A DNA stretch of 64,000 nt. Source: Escherichia coli (lineage in GTDB: Bacteria; Pseudomonadota; Gammaproteobacteria; Enterobacterales; Enterobacteriaceae). The stretch is taken from the NCBI RefSeq assembly GCF_044324785.1, contig NZ_CP172127.1. The stretch is one strand, 5' to 3'. Made by a program: the position numbers and the translations under genes. The notes beneath the pieces were generated by a model. The model was given only the letters and a program-made list of their open reading frames with translations. It was not told where the DNA came from and did not search any database. Shown here piece by piece: positions 1 to 44,938 of the stretch. How positions within the stretch are numbered: position 1 is the stretch's first letter; each line of letters begins with the position of its first letter.

Positions 1-90
1 TTTTTTTCGCAATTGTTTCCGCAATTTCTTTCGCGTTTTTTTTCGCAATTGTTTCCGCAATTTTTTGCGCAATTGTTTCCCGAGTTTTTG
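1..90. repeat. Tandem direct repeats (12-bp core, 36-bp higher-order unit) inside the 3' part of the edge gene
   Basis: gcaatt recurs at 9, 21, 45, 57, 69; positions 8-25 are identical to 44-61 (cgcaattgtttccgcaat). The repeats are in frame with the minus-strand ORF. Confidence 0.8.
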
Positions 91-919
91 ATTTTAGACT
101 AACACCATCGATGTCAACCGGTGTTGTTTTCAGATCTCTCTGCGCGTCTTTCAAATTTGTCTTATAGAGATCGGGCACTTTATCGGCAGATAAGTATCCG
201 GATGAAGAAATCTGGTGTGTACGCATGGGGGGCTGTTCACAAAGCATCGAGGCTATATCGTCTTTAAACTCTTTTACATTAAAGTTATCGGCATTAACCT
301 TCCCTGTTATAAACCCCGCATCGGCAATTTTCTTCTCTAATTGTTTTGTACGTTTAGAATTATGAGCGTTGTTATCATAAAACTTTTCAAGAAGGGCCCA
401 CTCCTCAAGTTGCCTTATGTGATTTTTCAACTGTTGATGATCTATTTTATATTCATGTGTACTAGAATCATTTTGATTGCAGGAGTTACAGATTTTTAAG
501 CATAATTTTCCATCAGATTTATCATCTATGGTATCAGTGAAAATATAGGACACTTCAATACTCTGCCCGTACTTATCAGACATCTCATATGACCATTGCC
601 CCGTTCGTTTCGCATTCTTAATGAATTCGATGGACTCTGCAGGACAACCATGAAGAATGGGCAGAATTTTATCAGGATGCTTAATGAGTAAAATTATTAT
701 ATTTACAACGTTTGAAAAGAAATTTTTGCCATTTTTTATTTCATCGATTTTTTCCGCTGAAATGTTTACTAAGTTTTCATTTCCGGAAATGAAAAGCAAT
801 TTGCCATGTGGGCTTTTTTTAAATTGTTCTTCTGTTTTAGAAAAGACATCCTCTTTAAAAGGTGGCAACTCAGTACCAGTAATAAACGGTTTCAATAAAT
901 TCGAATTTGAAATTGTCAT
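1..919 (-). CDS. Hypothetical protein, 5' complete and 3' truncated by the window edge (at least 306 codons); AT-rich; C-terminal part encoded by in-frame tandem repeats (ETIAKK-like)
   Basis: Manual minus-strand translation: ATG at 919-917, GGAG about 8 nt upstream, no in-frame stop through position 2 in markedly AT-rich DNA. Start of protein MTISNSNLLKPFITGTELPPFKEDVFSKTEEQFKKSPHGKLLFISGNEN; end in window RETIAQKIAETIAKKNAKEIAETIAKK. Not in the ORF track because it lacks a stop inside the window. No family recognised. Confidence 0.6.
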   Translation of the reverse strand, partial: MTISNSNLLKPFITGTELPPFKEDVFSKTEEQFKKSPHGKLLFISGNENLVNISAEKIDEIKNGKNFFSNVVNIIILLIKHPDKILPILHGCPAESIEFIKNAKRTGQWSYEMSDKYGQSIEVSYIFTDTIDDKSDGKLCLKICNSCNQNDSSTHEYKIDHQQLKNHIRQLEEWALLEKFYDNNAHNSKRTKQLEKKIADAGFITGKVNADNFNVKEFKDDIASMLCEQPPMRTHQISSSGYLSADKVPDLYKTNLKDAQRDLKTTPVDIDGVSLKSKTRETIAQKIAETIAKKNAKEIAETIAKK

Positions 920-1027
920 ATCTTTGCTCCACTACAGGGTTATCCTGGAGCATGTTGTACATAACATCATGGGCAAAGAATACCAAAAATCGCTCATATC
1001 GATCGGGACAAATATTTAACAAATTCA

Positions 1028-1071
1028 GCCCTGACATTGAGCAGCTTTTTTGCGCTGCGTAGTGTCAGGGC
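1028..1071. terminator. Nested inverted repeat between malZ 3' end and the edge gene start; possible bidirectional terminator or insertion scar
   Basis: GCCCTGACA ... TGTCAGGGC outer 9-bp perfect inverted repeat enclosing an inner GCAGC-ttttttgc-GCTGC hairpin. No clean U-tract immediately after the outer stem. Confidence 0.35.
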
Positions 1072-1106
1072 TGGTGACTAACGACGTAACAAATAAAACA
1101 GATGCT

Positions 1107-2921
1107 TTAGTTCATCCACACCGTAGCCGAAATGGCAGGCAAAGCCAGAATCCCGTCTGTCAGTTGCCCATGGCCTTCTTTGCGTTGCCATTGCACGACA
1201 TTAAGAAACGGTGACGCGGGTAGCACCACTTCACAGGCCTCGCCACGGTTGATTGCCACCAGTACACGCTGCTGATTCAGCACGCGGACAAATACCACCA
1301 CGTTATCTTCCGCATACAGCACCTGACAGCCGCCACGACGCAGCGCCTGACTTTTCTTACGCAGCGCAATCATTCGCTGGTACAACGCGAATAACGCCGT
1401 ATCCTGCTTTTCCACCTGCCAGGGGAACGGTTTACGGCAAAACGGATCGTTTTTACCATCCAGTCCCACTTCATCACCGTAATAAATGCACGGTACACCA
1501 GGCCAGGTGAACAACCAGACCACCGCCAGCGGCAGGCGCGCAATATCCCGACCGAGCAGCGTTTTAAATCGCGCAGTATCGTGGCTATCGAGCTGATTAA
1601 ACATACGTAATTGCTGTTGATGAGAAAGCCCTGCGCGGTAATTATCCATCCAGGCCATACAGGTTTGGGCGTCAATTTGCTGCGGATCATAAGAGATATC
1701 GGTGTTGGCGAGAAATCCCCACAACGGGAATGTGAAGCCGCGATAGTTCATGGCGGCATCTTCCACATCGGCCTGTAACCATTGCCGTGCATCGCCAAAA
1801 TGTTCGCCGACAATATACGCTTCCGGCTGGGTTTCTTTCGCCGCTTCGGTGATCCCAGCAACGTGCTGCATATTATTGCGCGCCCCACCCGCCTCCCCCA
1901 GCATATGCACCACATCCAGCCGCCAGCCGTCCATACTCCACGGCGCTTTCAGCCAGTGGCGGACAATACTGTCTTCCCCGCGATAAATTTCATTCACCAG
2001 ACTTTCCGACTGATAATCCAGCTTCGGCAAGCTGGCATAGCCCAGCCAGTCGAGCGCCGTGCCATCATCACTAAACGAGTACCAGTCGCGCCAGGGCGAT
2101 TCGGGGTTGTGACAAGCTCCTCCCGAGCCACGATTGTGCCTGTCAAACCAGGCATGGGAATCGCCACTGTGGTTAAACACGCCATCCAGCACCAGCCGCA
2201 TTCCCAGCTGCTGCGTATTGTGTCGCAAACGCAGCAACGCTCCATCACCGCCAAACTGCGGATCGACATGGCGATAATCCTCGGTATCGTATTTATGTAC
2301 GCTGGGAGCTTTAAACACCGGATTGAGATACAGCGCCGTCACGCCAAGTTTTTTCAGATACGGCAGTTTTTCGCTGATACCGTCCAGATCGCCGCCATAG
2401 AACGTTGATCCGCCCGCCTGCGCCGTGACCGGTTCATCCCAGTCACGCAATATGATCTCTTGTCCGGCTGCGTGATGGTAATAGACATGATCCTGTTCAG
2501 CTTCACGAGGAAGACTACGGGCGAAACGATCAGGGAAGATCTGATAAAAAATCTGATCCGCAGCCCATTGTGGGCCGATATCCGGTACATCGACGGCAAA
2601 CTGCTCCAGTCGTGCCGGCGGCATTCGGCTGAAGCCCTGCGGTGTAAACCAACGCTGGCGATCGTGCCACAGCAATTTGAAACTATAACGCCGCCGAGGT
2701 AGTCCGCTGGAGAGATCGATCGCCGCCCGCCATGCGGTAACGCCAGGCTGCGGCTGACTGCGCTGCTTATGCATCGCTACTGACGTTTCTTCGTTGTCGT
2801 GTTCTGTACGCAGCATAATGCGCTGCGGTGGGTCTTCGCCCGTCAGCCACAGTGTAATGAGCAGTTGATCTTTGCTTTGTTTAACAAATGGGGGTACCGG
2901 CAGGTGCCATGCATTTAACAT
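1107..2921 (-). CDS. malZ: Maltodextrin glucosidase
   Basis: 605-aa ORF ([22 protein letters not shown]...) recognised as MalZ; second Met taken as start to give the 604 aa I recall. Confidence 0.93.
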
Positions 2922-3079
2922 CATAATTCCCCTGTGATGAAAATCTGATCACCTTGCCATAGCCTAATGCAGGATCACTCATCATCTGAAGGATATTTGG
3001 GGGAGGAGGACGGGGGCGGATAACTTTCGGAATAGCCGGATCAGGATTTCCTCCTGAACCGGCTTACAGAACGCAAGGA

Positions 3080-16752: not shown

Positions 16753-19037
16753 TGTTTTTCCTCAAGCCGGTGACGCGCTTCACTGCGAATTTTCCGCGTT
16801 GCCCCTGTTTTCACTAAATCACGTAACAGCGAAAGATCGGGTTGATCGACAAATAAGAGTAATGATGGATCCTCTTTTAACCACGTCGTTTTCACATCGG
16901 CAGCCAACTGTGGATTATTAATAACCAACGCCCGATCCTGAGGCTCAGTCAATGTCGTTAACAAAGACGCCGGGGTATGTGCGTTGCGCAATGCCGTTTG
17001 GCGCAAATGATCATTGCGACTTTGCAGCAATGCACGCCACCATTCATCATCTGATTTATCTTTTATCGTAGCCAGTTCCGCAAAAATATCGCTATCCTCA
17101 CTGTTCCAGCGGTGTAGTCCTCTTTCACTTTGCCTACGGGTGCTATTTTTCATACTGACAACAGCCAGCGCCCAGTCAGAGTTGAAGCGATACTGTTGAT
17201 CGAGTTTGTTGATAATTCCGGAAGGTAAATCTTTATTATCAAATAATTGGTTACGCATTCGATAGCGGTATTCAGCGGGTAAATCAACCAGTAAATCAAT
17301 GGCATTATTTAACATCTCTTCGTCAACAACACCATTATCAATCAGCGCCAGCTGTACTTCATAGACTTGCTCTTGATCTTCTTGCCGTTTGCTCATCATT
17401 AAATTTAATGTGCGTTGCCATAATTGTTTTTTATATTCCAGCGGCAACAATTTATCGCGTGCCAGCTCATCCCAGACGGAGGGAATATCATGCTGAGTGA
17501 GTAGATAACTAATCACTTCCTTCGACGTCAGATAACGCGCACCTTCGCGTAAATTGTGCACATCTTCCTTTGCCAGAGACAGTTGACGCGACTCAGGTAA
17601 CGCTATCAATAACGCCTTCACGATATTTTTATTTTCTTTATTATCCAGATACATTTGTTCTGCGATACGTTCAATATCCTCTGTACGCAGGGTTGCTGAC
17701 AGTTGAGTAATTTTTAGTTCAGTAAGCGTCCGGGCTAATGCTTCACGAACTTTGAGTGATTTATCTTTACTCAACATCACAGCTTGTTGTGCGATTAAAT
17801 CTGCTCCGGTAATTCTTTCGCGTAACTCCGGGTCTTCACTATTTATCAACTCATCGACCACTGCAGTCGGAACCAGCCAGGCGTAATCGTAATGGCTAAT
17901 TAATGTCTTGCGCACACTGAGAAAAGGGCTATGACTTAATGCCGCAACAATATCAGGAGAAAGATTATCCTGTCTGGCCTGCTCCAGCTGTACGCTCTCG
18001 ACGGGTACAGACATTAATTTTTTATTCACTTCGGCGGAAATGTTACTGTTTTTAACCAGCCCTCTGGCAACAGCTTCATCTTTAATTAATTCATCGGTAA
18101 GCAAATGCATCTGTTGAGCGGGCCAGGACTGCGCCATCGATTCACGCGTCTGGTCATCGGGGTGCTGTAGCAGTTGCAGCATAACGGCGGTTGACAAACT
18201 TTCTATATGAGTCAGAAAACGTGCCACCAGTGGATCTTCATGCTTTATTTTATCCGCAGGGAAATTATCGAGTTTCCCCGTTTCAATCCATTTTAATTTC
18301 TCATTAATTTCAGGAGCGGCTTTATCTCGAAAAAGAGGTAAACCCTGAACGATATTGTCTGCGACGCTGTCATAGTCAGGATACGCATTGGAAATATTAT
18401 CGGTTTCGATTTCACTATGATCATAAAGATTAGGCGTCACCAGTGAATAGGCTTTTTGAATATTCTCATCCCAGTTATATTCTTCACCACTTCCATCTTC
18501 ATTGATATAAAATTCAGCTTTAATGACTTCAAATTGCGTTGCTTTATCGGAAACAATAATGCCTCGCGCACTAATTCCCTTCATCACTTCAAAGTTATGA
18601 TCATTGTAATCAGCATAAACTAAACCTTTCGCTGTCATCTGTCCTTTGACATACGCGAAATCATGATTAATAAAGTTATCGACAATAACATTACCTAATA
18701 CAATCAGATGACCATTACCTGACAGATAATCATCATAATCGCCGGAAATCGTTAAATTACCGTTCACCACCAGTTTATTTTGATTGCTGAAGTTAGCGGG
18801 TAATGATAGGTCACCATTATGATAATACCAGCGGATATTATCTTTTAGCATATAAGCAGCTTCCATACTATCGTCGGTTGCCGCTTTAACCACGTTGCGC
18901 TCATCTGCCGTCATAAGATGAAAGTCAGAGGTGATAAGGTCCTCGCTACTGATCCACTCTGTGGCACATGCATTGCCAGTCATAAAAAACACGACCATAC
19001 AGATGACCAATATTTTAATTCTATTCATAATCTTCAC
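16749..19037 (-). CDS. Hypothetical 762-aa exported protein with Sec signal peptide, N-terminal Gly/Asn-rich probable beta-rich segment and C-terminal helical (HEAT/LRV-like) repeats
   Basis: N-terminus MKIMNRIKILVICMVVFFMTGNACA has a basic n-region, hydrophobic core and Ala-X-Ala-like cleavage site. The C-terminal half shows recurring D/P...LR...A...L patterns (SEDPELRERITGADL, SLKVREALARTL, DHLRQTALRNAHTPASLLTTL). AT-rich relative to its flanks. Not recognised as any K-12 protein. Confidence 0.7.
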   Translation of the reverse strand: MKIMNRIKILVICMVVFFMTGNACATEWISSEDLITSDFHLMTADERNVVKAATDDSMEAAYMLKDNIRWYYHNGDLSLPANFSNQNKLVVNGNLTISGDYDDYLSGNGHLIVLGNVIVDNFINHDFAYVKGQMTAKGLVYADYNDHNFEVMKGISARGIIVSDKATQFEVIKAEFYINEDGSGEEYNWDENIQKAYSLVTPNLYDHSEIETDNISNAYPDYDSVADNIVQGLPLFRDKAAPEINEKLKWIETGKLDNFPADKIKHEDPLVARFLTHIESLSTAVMLQLLQHPDDQTRESMAQSWPAQQMHLLTDELIKDEAVARGLVKNSNISAEVNKKLMSVPVESVQLEQARQDNLSPDIVAALSHSPFLSVRKTLISHYDYAWLVPTAVVDELINSEDPELRERITGADLIAQQAVMLSKDKSLKVREALARTLTELKITQLSATLRTEDIERIAEQMYLDNKENKNIVKALLIALPESRQLSLAKEDVHNLREGARYLTSKEVISYLLTQHDIPSVWDELARDKLLPLEYKKQLWQRTLNLMMSKRQEDQEQVYEVQLALIDNGVVDEEMLNNAIDLLVDLPAEYRYRMRNQLFDNKDLPSGIINKLDQQYRFNSDWALAVVSMKNSTRRQSERGLHRWNSEDSDIFAELATIKDKSDDEWWRALLQSRNDHLRQTALRNAHTPASLLTTLTEPQDRALVINNPQLAADVKTTWLKEDPSLLLFVDQPDLSLLRDLVKTGATRKIRSEARHRLEEKQ

Positions 19038-25986: not shown

Positions 25987-26247
25987 TTACTGACGAGGAT
26001 GCTTCAATAACTTCTTTACATAATTGCGCAGCAGCTCCGTATCGTCGTCAGGAATGCTGGCATCGGGCTTTACCTCGTACAGTGCCCCCTCTACCTGATC
26101 AATCAACCTTTGTTGGTCATTTTGCGCCATATTGCGAAGCATTGCAGTGACGATAATCTCCAAAGCTTCTACCTGCGCGCACAGTTCTTTCGACTCTTCT
26201 TCTTTTTGGGCAAGCTTAAATAACAACTCAGCAATGAGATTTTTCAT
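25987..26247 (-). CDS. iraP: Anti-adapter protein IraP
   Basis: 86-aa [43 protein letters not shown]... recognised as IraP (YaiB). Confidence 0.93.
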
Positions 26248-26709
26248 GTCTGTATTTCCTTATCCAAAGTATGGAGAAGTTAACATTATGTTTCACAACT
26301 TCATAGTGTCTGGAAGTATTATTTTTATGACAAAGGAAATACTTTGCGCAAATATTTTTTGTTTGATTACCAGCGAAACGTTTCTCTTATTTAAATAATT
26401 ACCCACACAAAATATAGGCTTTTAATTATCAACCTTTATTATAAATAAAAGTTATGAAATATATTCTCTTCGTTAACTTATAATTAAGAGAAAAAAACTC
26501 ACTGCATGGCCATTTAAGCCAGGAATAAATTAGCTTCCCGTTCATCATTTTTGTGATCTTGCGCACATCATTGAGATAACGCACTTTCTTCACCAGTACG
26601 TTGCACGCTTTGTCAGCAGAAGATTGCAACATTCTGTCAGAAGGCCGCGAATCCCCCGTTTTGTCGTGGTAATGTATGCACTTTGTGTTAGACGGGATAG
26701 GTTTTTAAG

Positions 26710-27804
26710 ATGGAAAAACTGCGGGTAGGAATCGTTTTTGGTGGTAAATCAGCGGAACATGAAGTGTCTCTGCAATCGGCAAAAAACATTGTCGATGCCA
26801 TTGATAAAAGTCGCTTCGACGTTGTGCTGCTGGGCATTGATAAACAAGGGCAATGGCACGTCAGCGATGCCAGCAATTATCTGCTAAATGCAGACGATCC
26901 TGCCCATATTGCGTTGCGCCCTTCGGCGACCAGCCTTGCGCAGGTGCCTGGTAAACATGAACATCAGCTTATCGACGCGCAAAACGGTCAGCCGTTGCCG
27001 ACGGTGGATGTCATTTTCCCGATTGTCCACGGTACGCTGGGCGAAGATGGTTCCTTGCAGGGAATGCTGCGGGTCGCCAATTTACCGTTTGTAGGTTCTG
27101 ATGTTCTGGCTTCAGCGGCCTGTATGGATAAAGATGTCACCAAACGTCTGCTGCGCGATGCCGGGCTGAACATTGCGCCATTTATTACCCTGACGCGCGC
27201 TAATCGTCACAACATCAGTTTTGCCGAAGTGGAGTCTAAACTGGGGTTACCGCTGTTTGTAAAACCAGCTAATCAGGGCTCTTCTGTTGGTGTCAGCAAA
27301 GTAACCAGTGAAGAACAGTACGCAATTGCCGTCGATCTGGCGTTCGAGTTCGATCATAAAGTGATCGTTGAGCAAGGGATCAAAGGTCGTGAGATCGAAT
27401 GCGCAGTTCTGGGCAACGACAATCCGCAAGCCAGCACCTGTGGCGAGATCGTACTAACCAGCGATTTTTATGCCTACGACACCAAGTACATTGACGAAGA
27501 TGGCGCGAAAGTGGTAGTTCCGGCAGCCATTGCGCCAGAAATCAACGATAAGATCCGGGCGATTGCCGTTCAGGCTTATCAGACGTTGGGATGCGCAGGC
27601 ATGGCGCGTGTAGACGTGTTTTTAACCCCAGAGAACGACGTGGTGATCAACGAGATCAACACACTGCCTGGCTTCACCAACATCAGTATGTATCCGAAGC
27701 TGTGGCAAGCCAGCGGTCTGGGTTACACCGACCTGATCACCCGTTTGATTGAGCTGGCGCTGGAGCGTCACGCTGCGGATAACGCATTGAAAACCACAAT
27801 GTAA
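26710..27804 (+). CDS. ddlA: D-alanine--D-alanine ligase A
   Basis: 364-aa [50 protein letters not shown]... recognised as DdlA (ATP-grasp). Confidence 0.95.
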
Positions 27805-33379: not shown

Positions 33380-36301
<2,922 letters not shown>

Positions 36302-41491: not shown

Positions 41492-42454
41492 TTATTGCAC
41501 GAAGCGCGAGGTAACGTACTGGCTGTAATCGTTCGCTACAGCCGGGACTTTGCCCTGCTCTTTCAAAAACTGCGCGGTGTCGATGATCGCTTTGTTCACC
41601 GGTCCGATCAGTTCTGCCGTTTGCTGCTGCGGCGTCAGATAGGTATTCCCCTTCACCAGCCCCGGAACGTCACCTTCAGGCACGCCGCTTAACCGCGCCA
41701 GTTTGCTGATGTTTTCAGGCTGTTTCAGCCACGCGTCTGGGTTAGCAATGTACGGTTGCTGAGCATCGATGGCGCTTTTGGCGAACGCTTTCACGACCTC
41801 TGGATGTTTCTCGGCAAAATCTTTGCGCACCACCCAGACGTCCAGTGTCGGCGCGCCCCACAGCCCGACCTGTTCAGAATCGGTCAGCACCTTGCCGTCT
41901 TTTTCCAGGGCGTTAACCGCCGGTGCCCAGACATAAGCACCATCAATGTCTCCCCGTTGCCATGCGGCGATAATCGCGGGTGGCTGCAGGTTCACTATCT
42001 CCACTTGTCCGGGTTTTATACCCCAGTGTTTCAGCGCCGCCAGCAGGCTGTAGTGGGTGGTGGAGATAAACGGTACGGCGATGCGTTTGCCAATCAGATC
42101 TTCCGGTTTGCTGATAGTTTTCTTTACCACCAGCGCTTCGGAGTTACCCAGTTTTGACGCCAGCAAGAAGACTTCAATCGGCACCTGTTGGCTGGCTGCA
42201 ACCGCTAATGGGCTGGAACCGAGGTTGCCGATTTGCACGTCGCCTGAAGCCAGCGCCCGCACGATGCTGGCTCCGCTGTCAAACTTACGCCAGTCAACGC
42301 TCGCCCCACTCTCTTTAGCAAAGGTGTTATCAGCCTGAGCCACTTTCGCCGGTTCAGCGGAGGTTTGATAGGCCACGGTGACGTTCACCGCCTGTGCCTG
42401 AAAAGCGATGAATGCCAGTGCGGCAAGAAGTGTGTTACGCGATGAAATTGCCAT
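41492..42454 (-). CDS. tauA: Taurine ABC transporter periplasmic binding protein
   Basis: MAISSRNTLLAALAFIAFQAQAVNVTVAYQTSAEPAKVAQ... recognised as TauA; internal Met chosen to give 320 aa. Confidence 0.92.
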   Translation of the reverse strand: MAISSRNTLLAALAFIAFQAQAVNVTVAYQTSAEPAKVAQADNTFAKESGASVDWRKFDSGASIVRALASGDVQIGNLGSSPLAVAASQQVPIEVFLLASKLGNSEALVVKKTISKPEDLIGKRIAVPFISTTHYSLLAALKHWGIKPGQVEIVNLQPPAIIAAWQRGDIDGAYVWAPAVNALEKDGKVLTDSEQVGLWGAPTLDVWVVRKDFAEKHPEVVKAFAKSAIDAQQPYIANPDAWLKQPENISKLARLSGVPEGDVPGLVKGNTYLTPQQQTAELIGPVNKAIIDTAQFLKEQGKVPAVANDYSQYVTSRFVQ

Positions 42455-43060
42455 GATTGTCTGCTCCCCTGTCTTGTTATAGGAGCAGTATTCAGGAATA
42501 AAAACATTCATTAAAAGAATTAGTCGTTATCGCACAGATGATTTTATTCTTAGCAAAAAAGCGGCAAAGGAAAGATTAAATATGCAATTACACCCACTCT
42601 GACAATTCAGTAAGTTACTGCACTTCATTTTATTAATGCATAAACAAGCAGATTATAATGTCTTTTATTTTATTAACAGCAATACATATAATGAAACCAT
42701 CATATTCACATCGCATATATAACTGTGTCATTCTCAATCAACCACATAATATATTCACATCATGTATATAATCCATATTTGCGCATAGAACATATTTTTA
42801 AATGTAATTAATTGACAAACTAAATCACATCTAAATACAATATATAAAACAAAATAACTATACAAACCAAACACACAAACACTTAACATATGAACTACAT
42901 AAAAGATTACGCAGTCGTATCCACGTACCTGAAAGCCCCTTATTTTTCAGCTATCAGTAATTTTTAACACTTAAATATTAGCATCTATCTGCGCCAGAGA
43001 TTACGTCTCTGCGGGCATCGTTGTGCTTGTAGTATAATAAATAAAATGGAGTGTCATTAA

Positions 43061-43732
43061 GTGGATAAGGTTTTAGATTCAGCCATCCTTTCTTCAGCAA
43101 ATAAAAGAAAGGGTATCCTTGCTATTGGCGCACATCCTGACGATATAGAATTGGGCTGTGGCGCGTCGCTCGCTCGTCTTGCAAAAAAAGGGTTCTATAT
43201 TGCAGCGGTAGTGATGACATCGGGTAATTCCGGCGTGAGTGAAATAATTAATCGACATCAGGAATCACTCGAAGCATTAAACATTTTGGGGTGTCAACAA
43301 ACTATTCATTTTAATTTTGCTGACACCCGTACTCATTTACAACTTAATGATATGATTTCCGCTCTGGAAGATGTCCTTAAAAAACAAATTCCGTCTGATG
43401 TAGAAATCATTCGTGTATACACCATGCATGATGCTGACCGCCATCAGGATCATCTTGCAGTCTATCAAGCCTCAATGGTTGCCTGTCGCGCTATTCCGCA
43501 AATTCTCGGCTATGAAACGCCAAGTACCTGGCTTTCATTTATGCCACAGGTTTTTGAATCCGTGGAAGAGGAATATTTCACCATTAAACTGGCTGCATTA
43601 AAACAGCATAAGAGCCAGGGCCATCGTGATTATATGCGCCCGGATCGCCTGCGTGCAGTTGCACAATTTCGCGGGCAACAGGTCAATAGCGATCTGGGTG
43701 AAGGCTTTGTAATTCATAAAATGATTCTTTGA
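43061..43732 (+). CDS. yaiS: PIG-L/LmbE-family N-acetylglucosaminyl deacetylase-like protein
   Basis: ORF from GTG at 43061 with GGAG 9 nt upstream; AHPDDIELGCGA motif typical of the PIG-L/LmbE deacetylase fold; recognised as YaiS-like. Exact start is uncertain. Confidence 0.8.
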   Translation: MDKVLDSAILSSANKRKGILAIGAHPDDIELGCGASLARLAKKGFYIAAVVMTSGNSGVSEIINRHQESLEALNILGCQQTIHFNFADTRTHLQLNDMISALEDVLKKQIPSDVEIIRVYTMHDADRHQDHLAVYQASMVACRAIPQILGYETPSTWLSFMPQVFESVEEEYFTIKLAALKQHKSQGHRDYMRPDRLRAVAQFRGQQVNSDLGEGFVIHKMIL

Positions 43733-43741
43733 GCAAATTGC

Positions 43742-44938
43742 ATGAAAACCTGGATATTTATCTGTATGTCCATAGCAATGTTGCTATGGTTTTTAAGTAC
43801 GCTAAAACGTAAACCCAGTCAAAAGAAAGGCTGTATTGACGCCATTATACCTGCGTATAACGAAGGCCCGTGTCTGGCACAGTCACTGGATAATCTGCTG
43901 CGTAACCCTTATTTTTGCCGGGTAATTTGCGTAAACGACGGCTCCACGGACAATACCGAATCGGTCATGGAGGAAGTCAAACGCAAATGGGGCGACCGCT
44001 TTGTTGCCGTCACGCAAAAAAATACCGGTAAAGGTGGTGCGCTGATGAATGGCCTCAATTACGCCACCTGCGACCAGGTTTTTTTAAGTGATGCCGACAC
44101 CTATGTTCCGCCCGATCAAGACGGAATGGGCTATATGCTGGCAGAAATTGAGCGCGGTGCCGATGCCGTAGGCGGCATTCCCTCTACTGCGTTGAAAGGC
44201 GCGGGTCTGTTACCACACATCCGCGCGACCGTAAAGTTGCCGATGATTGTTATGAAGCGCACGCTACAGCAGCTCGTGGGCGGCGCACCGTTTATTATCA
44301 GCGGTGCCTGCGGGATGTTCCGTACTGATGTATTGCGTAAGTTCGGTTTCTCGGATCGTACTAAAGTCGAAGACCTTGATCTCACCTGGACATTGGTGGC
44401 AAACGGCTACCGTATTCGGCAGGCGAATCGCTGCATCGTATACCCGCAGGAATGCAACAGCCCGCGTGAGGAGTGGCGTCGCTGGCGGCGTTGGATTGTG
44501 GGCTACGCGGTCTGTATGCGCCTGCATAAAAGACTTTTATTTAGCCGCTTCGGTATCTTCAGTATATTTCCTATGCTGTTGGTTGTGCTTTATGGCGTTG
44601 GGATTTATCTCACTACCTGGTTTAATGAATTCATCACCACCGGGCCGCATGGTGTGGTGTTGGCAATGTTTCCGCTTATCTGGGTCGGCGTAGTTTGTGT
44701 TATTGGTGCTTTTAGCGCCTGGTTTCATCGTTGCTGGTTGTTGGTGCCTTTAGCGCCGCTTTCCGTTGTGTATGTATTATTAGCTTATGCCATCTGGATT
44801 ATTTATGGACTTATTGCCTTTTTTACTGGACGCGAACCTCAGCGCGACAAACCCACCCGCTATTCCGCACTGGTGGAAGCGTCAACCGCTTATTCCCAAC
44901 CTTCTGCTACAGGAACTGAAAAACTATCTGAAGCTTAA
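43742..44938 (+). CDS. yaiP: Family 2 glycosyltransferase with C-terminal transmembrane segments
   Basis: 398-aa ORF; GT2-like N-terminal domain (AIIPAYNEG, VICVNDGSTDNT, LSDADT) followed by hydrophobic helices; recognised as YaiP-like. Confidence 0.85.
   Translation: MKTWIFICMSIAMLLWFLSTLKRKPSQKKGCIDAIIPAYNEGPCLAQSLDNLLRNPYFCRVICVNDGSTDNTESVMEEVKRKWGDRFVAVTQKNTGKGGALMNGLNYATCDQVFLSDADTYVPPDQDGMGYMLAEIERGADAVGGIPSTALKGAGLLPHIRATVKLPMIVMKRTLQQLVGGAPFIISGACGMFRTDVLRKFGFSDRTKVEDLDLTWTLVANGYRIRQANRCIVYPQECNSPREEWRRWRRWIVGYAVCMRLHKRLLFSRFGIFSIFPMLLVVLYGVGIYLTTWFNEFITTGPHGVVLAMFPLIWVGVVCVIGAFSAWFHRCWLLVPLAPLSVVYVLLAYAIWIIYGLIAFFTGREPQRDKPTRYSALVEASTAYSQPSATGTEKLSEA

What the first reader, a model, noticed from the sequence alone, without database searches (positions are those of the whole stretch)
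1..90. In-frame 12/36-bp tandem repeats encoding an (E-T/I-I-A-K/Q-K)n C-terminal tail
gcaatt recurs with 12-bp spacing and an 18-bp block (cgcaattgtttccgcaat) recurs exactly at a 36-bp offset. The repeat is in frame with the edge gene, giving an ETIAKK/EIAETIAKK-type low-complexity, probably helical tail that continues beyond the window. Because the unit is a multiple of three, copy-number change by slippage would alter tail length without frameshifting. Repeats at a contig edge are also a common cause of assembly breaks.
Basis: seen in the sequence. Interest (0 to 1): 0.35.

Follow-up and report, generated by a model that had tools for sequence, protein, structure and literature searches.

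The report
Variable repeat linker in orphan gene
The repeat is real, but it is not a tail: it is the start of a copy-number-variable, probably helical linker in the middle of an Escherichia-only gene of unknown function, and its poly-A runs also cause frameshifts in wild isolates. This is an ordinary kind of coding tandem repeat in an unstudied gene.

Summary
Observation confirmed. Window 1-90 holds seven 12-nt units, and an exact 27-nt block (1-27 = 37-63) recurs at a 36-nt offset. It is the only tandem array in the 64 kb.

The repeat lies on the minus strand, in frame with a gene that starts at 919 and runs off the window start. Related genomes show the full gene: 461-506 aa, "hypothetical protein", ECs_0454 in O157:H7 Sakai. 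It sits as a 1.7-kb low-GC insert between malZ and acpH in about 21% of complete E. coli genomes.

The repeat is an internal linker, with about 165 more residues after it, so "C-terminal tail" is wrong. In-frame slippage is supported. Linker length is 27+4n residues, and near-identical backgrounds carry alleles that differ by 12, 36 or 72 nt.

The A8 runs inside the repeat are also -1 frameshift sites. Two independent truncating alleles and two compensated double shifts exist. The window's closest relatives differ from it only by A8 to A7.

The ORF is maintained: no nonsense change among at least 250 mutations. It evolves fast, with dN/dS 0.6-0.75 against 0.05-0.08 for malZ. No homologue exists outside Escherichia/Shigella, no family matches and no structure prediction was usable, so function is unknown. 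Modest interest.

The parts
2..85 (-). Seven complete 12-nt coding repeat units (TRET IAQK IAET IAKK NAKE IAET IAKK). Units 3-5 and 6-8 form a 36-nt higher-order unit. The array continues past the window start.
1..63 (-). Exact 27-nt direct repeat at a 36-nt offset (1-27 = 37-63), the substrate for gain or loss of 36 nt.
   Evidence: Alleles differing by -36 and -72 nt occur in a background at least 99.7% identical (L015, L016).
36..43 (-). A8 run (T8 on the + strand) made by Lys-Lys-Asn codons AAA AAA AAC. It is a -1 frameshift site. L021 and L022 are identical or nearly identical (0 or 1 mismatch) to the window over 3 kb but carry A7 here, which gives a 342-aa truncated product.
1..7 (-). 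Second poly-A run (T7 visible, cut by the window edge). It is A8 in full-length relatives and A7 in L023, an independent frameshift.
2..919 (-). First 306 codons of an Escherichia-restricted orphan gene (ECs_0454 family; the full gene is probably 501 codons, as in P0140). ATG at 919-917, GGAG 7 nt upstream.
920..1106 (-). Intergenic part of the 1.7-kb low-GC insert that K-12 lacks. It contains a stable hairpin at 1029-1071 just downstream of malZ.
1107..2924 (-). malZ, the core gene that marks the right border of the insert.

Best explanation
Window 1-90 is the promoter-proximal part of a coding minisatellite in the middle of a real protein gene of unknown function. The array is built of 12-nt units, partly organised as 36-nt super-units. 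The gene is about 1.5 kb, is restricted to Escherichia and Shigella, and corresponds to ECs_0454 of O157:H7 Sakai. It lies in a low-GC 1.7-kb insert between malZ and acpH.

The units encode four-residue repeats of the type (I/N/T)-A-(E/K)-(K/T/E). They form a linker free of Pro and Gly and rich in Lys, Glu, Ala and Ile. The linker is probably alpha-helical and joins an N-terminal region of about 275 aa to a C-terminal domain of about 165 aa.

Shown: replication slippage or unequal recombination between units adds or removes 12, 36 or more nt, always in frame, so linker length varies as 27+4n residues among strains. Also shown: the A7-A8 runs created by Lys codons are -1 frameshift sites. A shift truncates the protein just after the repeat, or, when a second shift compensates, rewrites a few units.

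Inferred: the linker acts as a tolerant spacer whose exact length matters little. On this view the variation is mostly a mutational by-product of an AT-rich, low-complexity coding tract, not a programmed switch.
For: Repeat and frame. Full gene and internal position of the repeat. Length classes 466-506 aa are almost all in steps of 4 aa. Identical-flank pairs differ in unit number: P0002/P0003, P0059/P0073, P0062/P0092 and P0119/P0081. Arrays of 141, 177 and 213 nt occur in backgrounds at least 99.4% identical to the window. Frameshifts at two different A8 runs are seen in L021/L022 and in L023. Compensated double shifts are seen in L001/P0148 (TRKKTRKK) and P0153. Genuine coding: at least 250 mutations among 12 alleles with no nonsense change (10.5 expected, P = 2e-5), and every indel is a multiple of 12 nt. 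11 of the 12 complete-genome loci examined (10 from an even spread of DNA hits, plus L002 and Sakai) are intact. Helix: no Pro or Gly, 39-51% charged residues, and AlphaFold models 277-307 as a helix. Tolerance of the linker: the L013 allele replaces the repeat with a shorter, non-repetitive linker and keeps the ORF. Stability where units are degenerate: about ten O157:H7 genomes all have the same locus length.
Against: The protein's function and fold are unknown. AlphaFold gave pLDDT 36 for the full protein and 47 for the C-terminal domain, so the domain boundaries and the helical linker are weakly supported. dN/dS of 0.6-0.75, against 0.05-0.08 for malZ in the same genomes, shows weak constraint and could mean the gene is sliding towards loss. 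The frameshifted allele P0144 is on more contigs (43) than the intact P0140, which the cluster table puts on 17 contigs and the index lists in 32 blocks. That pattern could reflect a sampled clone, selection for the OFF state, or a systematic sequencing error; I could not inspect reads. No expression data were found.
Confidence: 0.72

Rival explanations
1. Contingency locus. The repeat is a selected hypermutable cassette. A8 slippage switches the full-length protein ON and OFF, and unit gain or loss tunes linker length. This would give E. coli populations heritable, reversible diversity in a gene involved in conflict, for example with phages.
For: There are two independent -1 frameshifts at two A8 runs and two compensated double shifts. 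The window and L021 have no mismatches over 3 kb except A8 versus A7. Three array lengths occur in near-identical backgrounds. dN/dS is high, and a hypervariable patch in the C-terminal domain shows 6.8 non-synonymous against 0.9 synonymous differences per 30 codons. The gene is a low-GC accessory singleton.
Against: A7-A8 runs and imperfect units in few copies mutate far more slowly than classical contingency tracts. About ten O157:H7 genomes share one length. No PADLOC, Pfam, NCBIfam or PHROGs family matches. No reversion or switching rate was measured. A8 runs are an expected by-product of Lys-rich coding in 35% GC DNA. The 43 OFF contigs may be one clone.
Confidence: 0.12
2. Decaying or non-functional ORF. 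The gene is a dispensable relic, and the repeat polymorphism, frameshifts and amino-acid changes are neutral decay.
For: 79% of complete E. coli genomes lack it, and K-12 has a clean junction. O55:H7 USDA5905 has deleted most of it. Truncated alleles are common in one lineage. dN/dS is 0.6-1.0 and reaches 1.5 in one C-terminal comparison. There are no homologues elsewhere.
Against: No nonsense change among at least 250 mutations, against 10.5 expected (P = 2e-5). All indels among the 12 sampled alleles are multiples of 12 nt. 11 of the 12 complete-genome loci examined are intact. dN/dS is still below 1 on average.
Confidence: 0.12
3. Assembly artefact or collapsed repeat at a contig end.
For: The window begins inside the array.
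Against: The same array lies inside 1,126 complete chromosomes and inside short-read contigs of 21-132 kb. The longest exact repeat is only 27 nt, which is too short to break ordinary assemblies.
Confidence: 0.03

Closest known systems
In-frame coding VNTRs used for E. coli/Shigella MLVA typing (general class; from my own knowledge of the MLVA literature, not checked here)
   Same: Tandem units that are a multiple of three lie inside an ORF. Copy number differs among lineages and is stable within clones.
   Different: I found no paper naming this locus. The units are imperfect and few. In O157:H7 the locus appears invariant.
Simple-sequence contingency loci of Haemophilus and Neisseria (homopolymer or tetranucleotide tracts in ORFs; established knowledge)
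   Same: A homopolymer (A8) inside an ORF has natural +/-1 variants that truncate the product.
   Different: The tracts are short (7-8 nt). The main repeat unit is in frame, so it changes length and does not switch expression. No switching rate or phenotype is known. The organism is E. coli, where such loci are rare.
Lys/Glu/Ala-rich helical spacers, such as the central domain II of E. coli TolA and ER/K single alpha-helices of myosins (established knowledge)
   Same: A Pro/Gly-free repeat rich in K, E and A lies between two domains. It has many i/i+4 opposite-charge pairs (4-9 per linker) and is modelled as a helix.
   Different: It carries Ile-Ala every four residues (hydrophobic period 4.0). 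Charged fraction is only 39-51%. There is no sequence homology. Helicity is unverified.
Taxonomically restricted (orphan) genes of E. coli in AT-rich inserts
   Same: It is a low-GC singleton insert, found in a minority of strains, with no homologues outside the genus.
   Different: It is unusually long for an orphan (about 490 aa), and statistics show the ORF is maintained.

Membership tests
Coding (in-frame) VNTR / minisatellite | Head-to-tail tandem copies beyond chance | tested here: met
   TRF period 12 and 36. Motif spacing found 3 times against 0.02 expected.
Coding (in-frame) VNTR / minisatellite | Unit length a multiple of 3 and located inside a maintained ORF | tested here: met
   Units of 12 and 36 nt lie in frame with the ORF from 919. 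No nonsense change among at least 250 mutations.
Coding (in-frame) VNTR / minisatellite | Copy-number polymorphism among isolates | tested here: met
   Linker of 27-63 aa in steps of 4. Arrays of 141, 177 and 213 nt in near-identical backgrounds.
Phase-variable contingency locus | Simple-sequence tract in the ORF with natural out-of-frame variants | tested here: met
   A8 to A7 at two different runs (L021/L022, L023). Compensated shifts in L001 and P0153.
Phase-variable contingency locus | High-frequency, reversible switching within a clone | not testable with these tools
   This needs fluctuation assays or read-level heterogeneity. The only evidence is one ON/OFF difference in a background with no mismatches.
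Phase-variable contingency locus | Product acts at a host, phage or environment interface | tested here: inconclusive
   No family match in Pfam, PADLOC, NCBIfam, PHROGs or PDB sequences. I saw no obvious signal peptide or membrane segment by eye in the sequence.
Heptad coiled coil | Hydrophobic periodicity near 3.5 residues (about 103 degrees) | tested here: not met
   The hydrophobic moment spectrum peaks at 90 degrees (0.46) and is about 0.04-0.05 at 100-105 degrees.
ER/K single alpha-helix | Very high E/K/R content with dense i/i+4 salt bridges and few hydrophobic residues | tested here: inconclusive
   Charged fraction is 0.39-0.51, with 4-9 i/i+4 opposite-charge pairs, but Ile recurs regularly every 4 residues.
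Known anti-phage defence proteins (PADLOC-DB v2) | Significant match to a defence-system model | tested here: not met
   The only hit is a low-complexity match to Cas7e, E = 0.008-0.03, confined to the repeat.

The most novel reading that the evidence does not exclude
ECs_0454 and its relatives could form a genuine contingency gene of E. coli. On this reading it is a genus-specific protein under diversifying selection. Its domain spacing would be tuned by 12/36-nt unit slippage, and its expression would be toggled by A8 frameshifting, as part of an undescribed conflict system such as phage defence or counter-defence.
Probability: 0.1. Interest if true: 0.65.

Novelty: new member of a known kind. 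Interest (0 to 1): 0.27.

Why it matters
In-frame coding tandem repeats and homopolymer frameshift sites are well-known mutational phenomena, so the mechanism is not new. Three points are of modest value.

1. The finding corrects the reading of the locus: the repeat is an internal linker, not a tail.
2. It documents a long, clearly maintained, fast-evolving orphan gene. The gene is present at one fixed site in about a fifth of complete E. coli genomes, including O157:H7, and I found no literature on it.
3. Wild isolates carry both length alleles and ON/OFF frameshift alleles generated inside the same array. That makes the locus a usable strain-typing marker and a tractable case for asking whether E. 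coli has simple-sequence contingency genes.

Tried and rejected
- **Family assignment.** Pfam, PADLOC, NCBIfam and PHROGs scans of full-length relatives gave only sub-threshold, low-complexity hits to the repeat. A PDB sequence profile search gave nothing below E = 0.07.
- **Distant homologues.** An exhaustive phmmer search of 1.84 billion representatives found one full-length cluster plus fragments and nothing distant. tblastn against phages found nothing. Against plasmids it found only two mislabelled 4.9-Mb chromosomes.
- **Structure.** AlphaFold2 on the full protein (24-sequence alignment) gave pLDDT 36, and on the C-terminal domain alone pLDDT 47. Both are too poor for a fold search, so none was run.
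- **Literature.** Searches for WP_000155947, ECs0454, NP_308481, Z0503 with O157, the malZ-acpH junction, and malZ with hotspot and defence found nothing relevant. The Z0503 locus tag was a guess from memory.
- **Compensated frameshift as the cause of the variable patch.** I checked whether the hypervariable C-terminal patch arises from a pair of compensating frameshifts. It does not: the DNA itself is divergent there.
- **Promoter scan.** The scan of 1-1300 found no minus-strand promoter-like site for the gene.
- **Protein fragments.** The fragments P0121-P0138 are mostly contig-end or low-coverage products and were not used as evidence.
- **Rfam.** The whole window gave no matches.

Full report
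**1. The observation**

Window 1-90 contains a genuine tandem array. Tandem Repeats Finder gives period 12 at 4-80 (6.4 copies, 76% matches) and period 36 at 1-70 (1.9 copies, 94% matches, score 126). It is the only array scoring at least 50 in the 64-kb window. GCAATT-N6-GCAATT occurs three times, all within 9-74, against 0.02 expected from shuffles. The exact repeat is in fact 27 nt (1-27 = 37-63) and is cut by the window edge.

**2. Strand, frame and gene**

The repeat belongs to a minus-strand ORF. Its ATG is at 919-917, with GGAG 7 nt upstream, and it runs off the window start after 306 codons. In gene orientation the visible array is seven 12-nt units: TRET IAQK IAET IAKK NAKE IAET IAKK. 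No plus-strand ORF crosses the region.

The first kilobase has 36% GC, against 52-58% for its neighbours malZ, proY and brnQ, and is the lowest-GC kilobase in the window.

**3. The full gene, seen in relatives**

Megablast finds the segment in 1,126 of 5,426 complete E. coli genomes. It is always chromosomal and single-copy. There it is a "hypothetical protein" of 461-505 aa lying between acpH and malZ. In O157:H7 Sakai it is ECs_0454, 481 aa.

K-12 lacks the gene. Its malZ and acpH stop codons are 4 bp apart, and the insert is 1,719 bp in strain F2_81. Window 1-1106 therefore lies wholly inside the insert.

In every full-length copy the repeat occupies about residues 278-340. A conserved C-terminal region of about 165 aa follows it. 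The repeat is an internal linker, not a C-terminal tail.

The window's protein fragment is 99% identical to P0002. Its repeat units match those of P0140 (501 aa; loci L017 and L018), so the window's own gene most likely encodes 501 aa.

**4. Copy-number variation**

Among 120 cluster representatives, lengths are 466 to 501 aa, almost all in steps of 4 aa. The segment between DIDGVSLK and NPEDNF is 27+4n residues, from 27 to 63.

Proteins with identical flanks differ in unit number:
- P0002 and P0003 differ by 12 aa.
- P0059 and P0073, P0062 and P0092, and P0119 and P0081 each differ by 4 aa.

At the DNA level, three backgrounds at least 99.4% identical to the window over 3 kb carry arrays of 141, 177 and 213 nt. 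These are steps of the 36-nt super-unit, the same unit that carries the 27-nt exact repeat.

Where the units are degenerate, the locus is stable. The longest exact repeat in the O157 allele is 10 nt, and about ten O157:H7 genomes share one locus length.

One divergent allele (L013, 461 aa) has a shorter, non-repetitive linker in the same place. This suggests the array is a lineage-specific expansion of a tolerant linker.

**5. Frameshifts inside the array**

The Lys-Lys-Asn codons AAA AAA AAC create A8 runs. On the plus strand of the window these appear as T8 at 36-43 and T7 at 1-7, the second cut by the edge.

- L021 and L022 are short-read contigs of about 56 kb. L021 has no mismatches to the window over 3,000 bp and L022 has one; each also has a single 1-nt gap. 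That gap is A8 to A7 at the first run.
- The product, P0144, shifts frame to ...IAKKTRKKLRKQL... and stops at 342 aa. It is recorded on 43 contigs.
- L023 carries A8 to A7 at the second run (P0146). This is an independent event.
- L001/P0148 (TRKKTRKK) and P0153 carry compensated double shifts within the array.

Caveat: I could not inspect reads. Contigs tens of kilobases long do argue against error-prone data.

**6. Is it a real gene?**

Twelve alleles from complete genomes differ by at least 250 mutations, none of them nonsense. Neutral evolution would predict 10.5 (P = 2e-5). Every indel is a multiple of 12 nt. Of the 12 complete-genome loci examined (10 from an even spread of DNA hits, plus L002 and Sakai), 11 are intact. 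The exception is O55:H7 USDA5905, where a deletion removes the 5' part of the gene and the 3' end of malZ.

Constraint on the amino-acid sequence is nevertheless weak. Mean dN/dS is 0.6-0.75, against 0.05-0.08 for the adjacent malZ in the same genomes. dS is similar or lower, at 0.03-0.06 against 0.04-0.11.

**7. What the protein is**

Its function is unknown.
- No significant match in Pfam, PADLOC, NCBIfam, PHROGs or PDB sequences.
- An exhaustive phmmer search of 1.84 billion representatives finds one full-length cluster and fragments only.
- All named hits are Escherichia or Shigella.
- No phage or true plasmid copy exists.
- AlphaFold2 models are unreliable, at pLDDT 36 and 47, so no fold search was run.
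- No paper mentioning the locus was found.

**8. The linker**

The linker has no Pro or Gly, is 39-51% charged, and has 4-9 i/i+4 opposite-charge pairs. AlphaFold models it as a helix at pLDDT about 50. Its hydrophobic periodicity is exactly 4.0 residues (peak at 90 degrees) with nothing at 100-105 degrees. It is therefore not a heptad coiled coil, and "helical" remains an inference.

**9. Interpretation**

The best reading (confidence 0.72) is an in-frame coding VNTR that forms a variable, probably helical spacer between two regions of a maintained but fast-evolving orphan protein. Slippage produces length alleles, and the A8 runs produce occasional truncations, mainly as mutational by-products.

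The rivals are:
- a selected contingency locus (0.12);
- a decaying, non-functional ORF (0.12);
- an assembly artefact (0.03).

The phenomenon is a known kind. The locus itself appears undescribed. Interest is modest.

Noticed in passing
window 1029-1071 (minus strand): A stable hairpin (dG -31.4 kcal/mol, z -4.7 against shuffles) lies 35 nt downstream of the malZ stop and is followed by a partly U-rich stretch. It lies inside the insert that K-12 lacks and may terminate malZ in carrier strains.
   Followed up: partly
L013:316-1701 (E. coli ECNB21-M121, WP_023307680.1): This divergent 461-aa allele has a shorter, non-repetitive linker (TRRHLADIIHVKCMREKNYTTDQGFELPEE) in place of the repeat, and a C-terminal domain only 73% identical to the window-like allele.
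   Followed up: partly
L001:7680-7719 (codons about 401-414 of the 505-aa allele; outside the window): A hypervariable patch in the C-terminal domain has at least four haplotypes (IDLCSSTATKLQG, AGLLRQIASKTAI, AGLLHQIASNSEI, ADLIEQIGSNSEK) between near-identical flanks. There are about 6.8 non-synonymous against 0.9 synonymous differences per 30 codons. It is not a frameshift artefact.
   Followed up: partly
L014:2516-4256 (E. coli O55:H7 USDA5905): A deletion removes the 5' three-quarters of the orphan gene together with the 3' end of malZ. Both genes are annotated as partial pseudogenes.
   Followed up: no
L022:996-2813 (Logan SRR31140545): malZ is split into two called ORFs (184 + 411 aa) in a genome otherwise near-identical to the window, which suggests a disrupted malZ in that isolate.
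   Followed up: no
window 479-502 (minus strand; codons 140-147): An invariant Cys motif C-x3-C-x2-C (CLKICNSC), together with an invariant HGC at 90-92, occurs in all alleles. There is no radical-SAM or other family match. Its significance is unknown.
   Followed up: no
L001:576-1092 and L004:16258-16774, compared with L002: A ParD/RelE-type toxin-antitoxin pair lies between secF and yajD in F2_81 and O157:H7 Sakai and is absent from VE-T9. This is a second small accessory insert near the same core region, outside the window.
   Followed up: no
L003:3333-3338 (K-12 MG1655): The convergent malZ and acpH stop codons are only 4 bp apart in K-12. The string 'malZ-acpH' occurs once in a 2025 paper on overlapping transcription (PMC12288877), which I did not read. 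The 1.7-kb insert separates this pair in carrier strains.
   Followed up: no
window 17001-19000, 26001-27000, 35001-36000, 42001-44000: These are other kilobases of low GC (0.40-0.44) in the window and may be further accessory segments.
   Followed up: no
orphan gene alignment (12 alleles): Transitions and transversions are about equal among segregating sites (109 to 108). I recall E. coli genes as transition-biased (not checked here), so this looks unusual.
   Followed up: no
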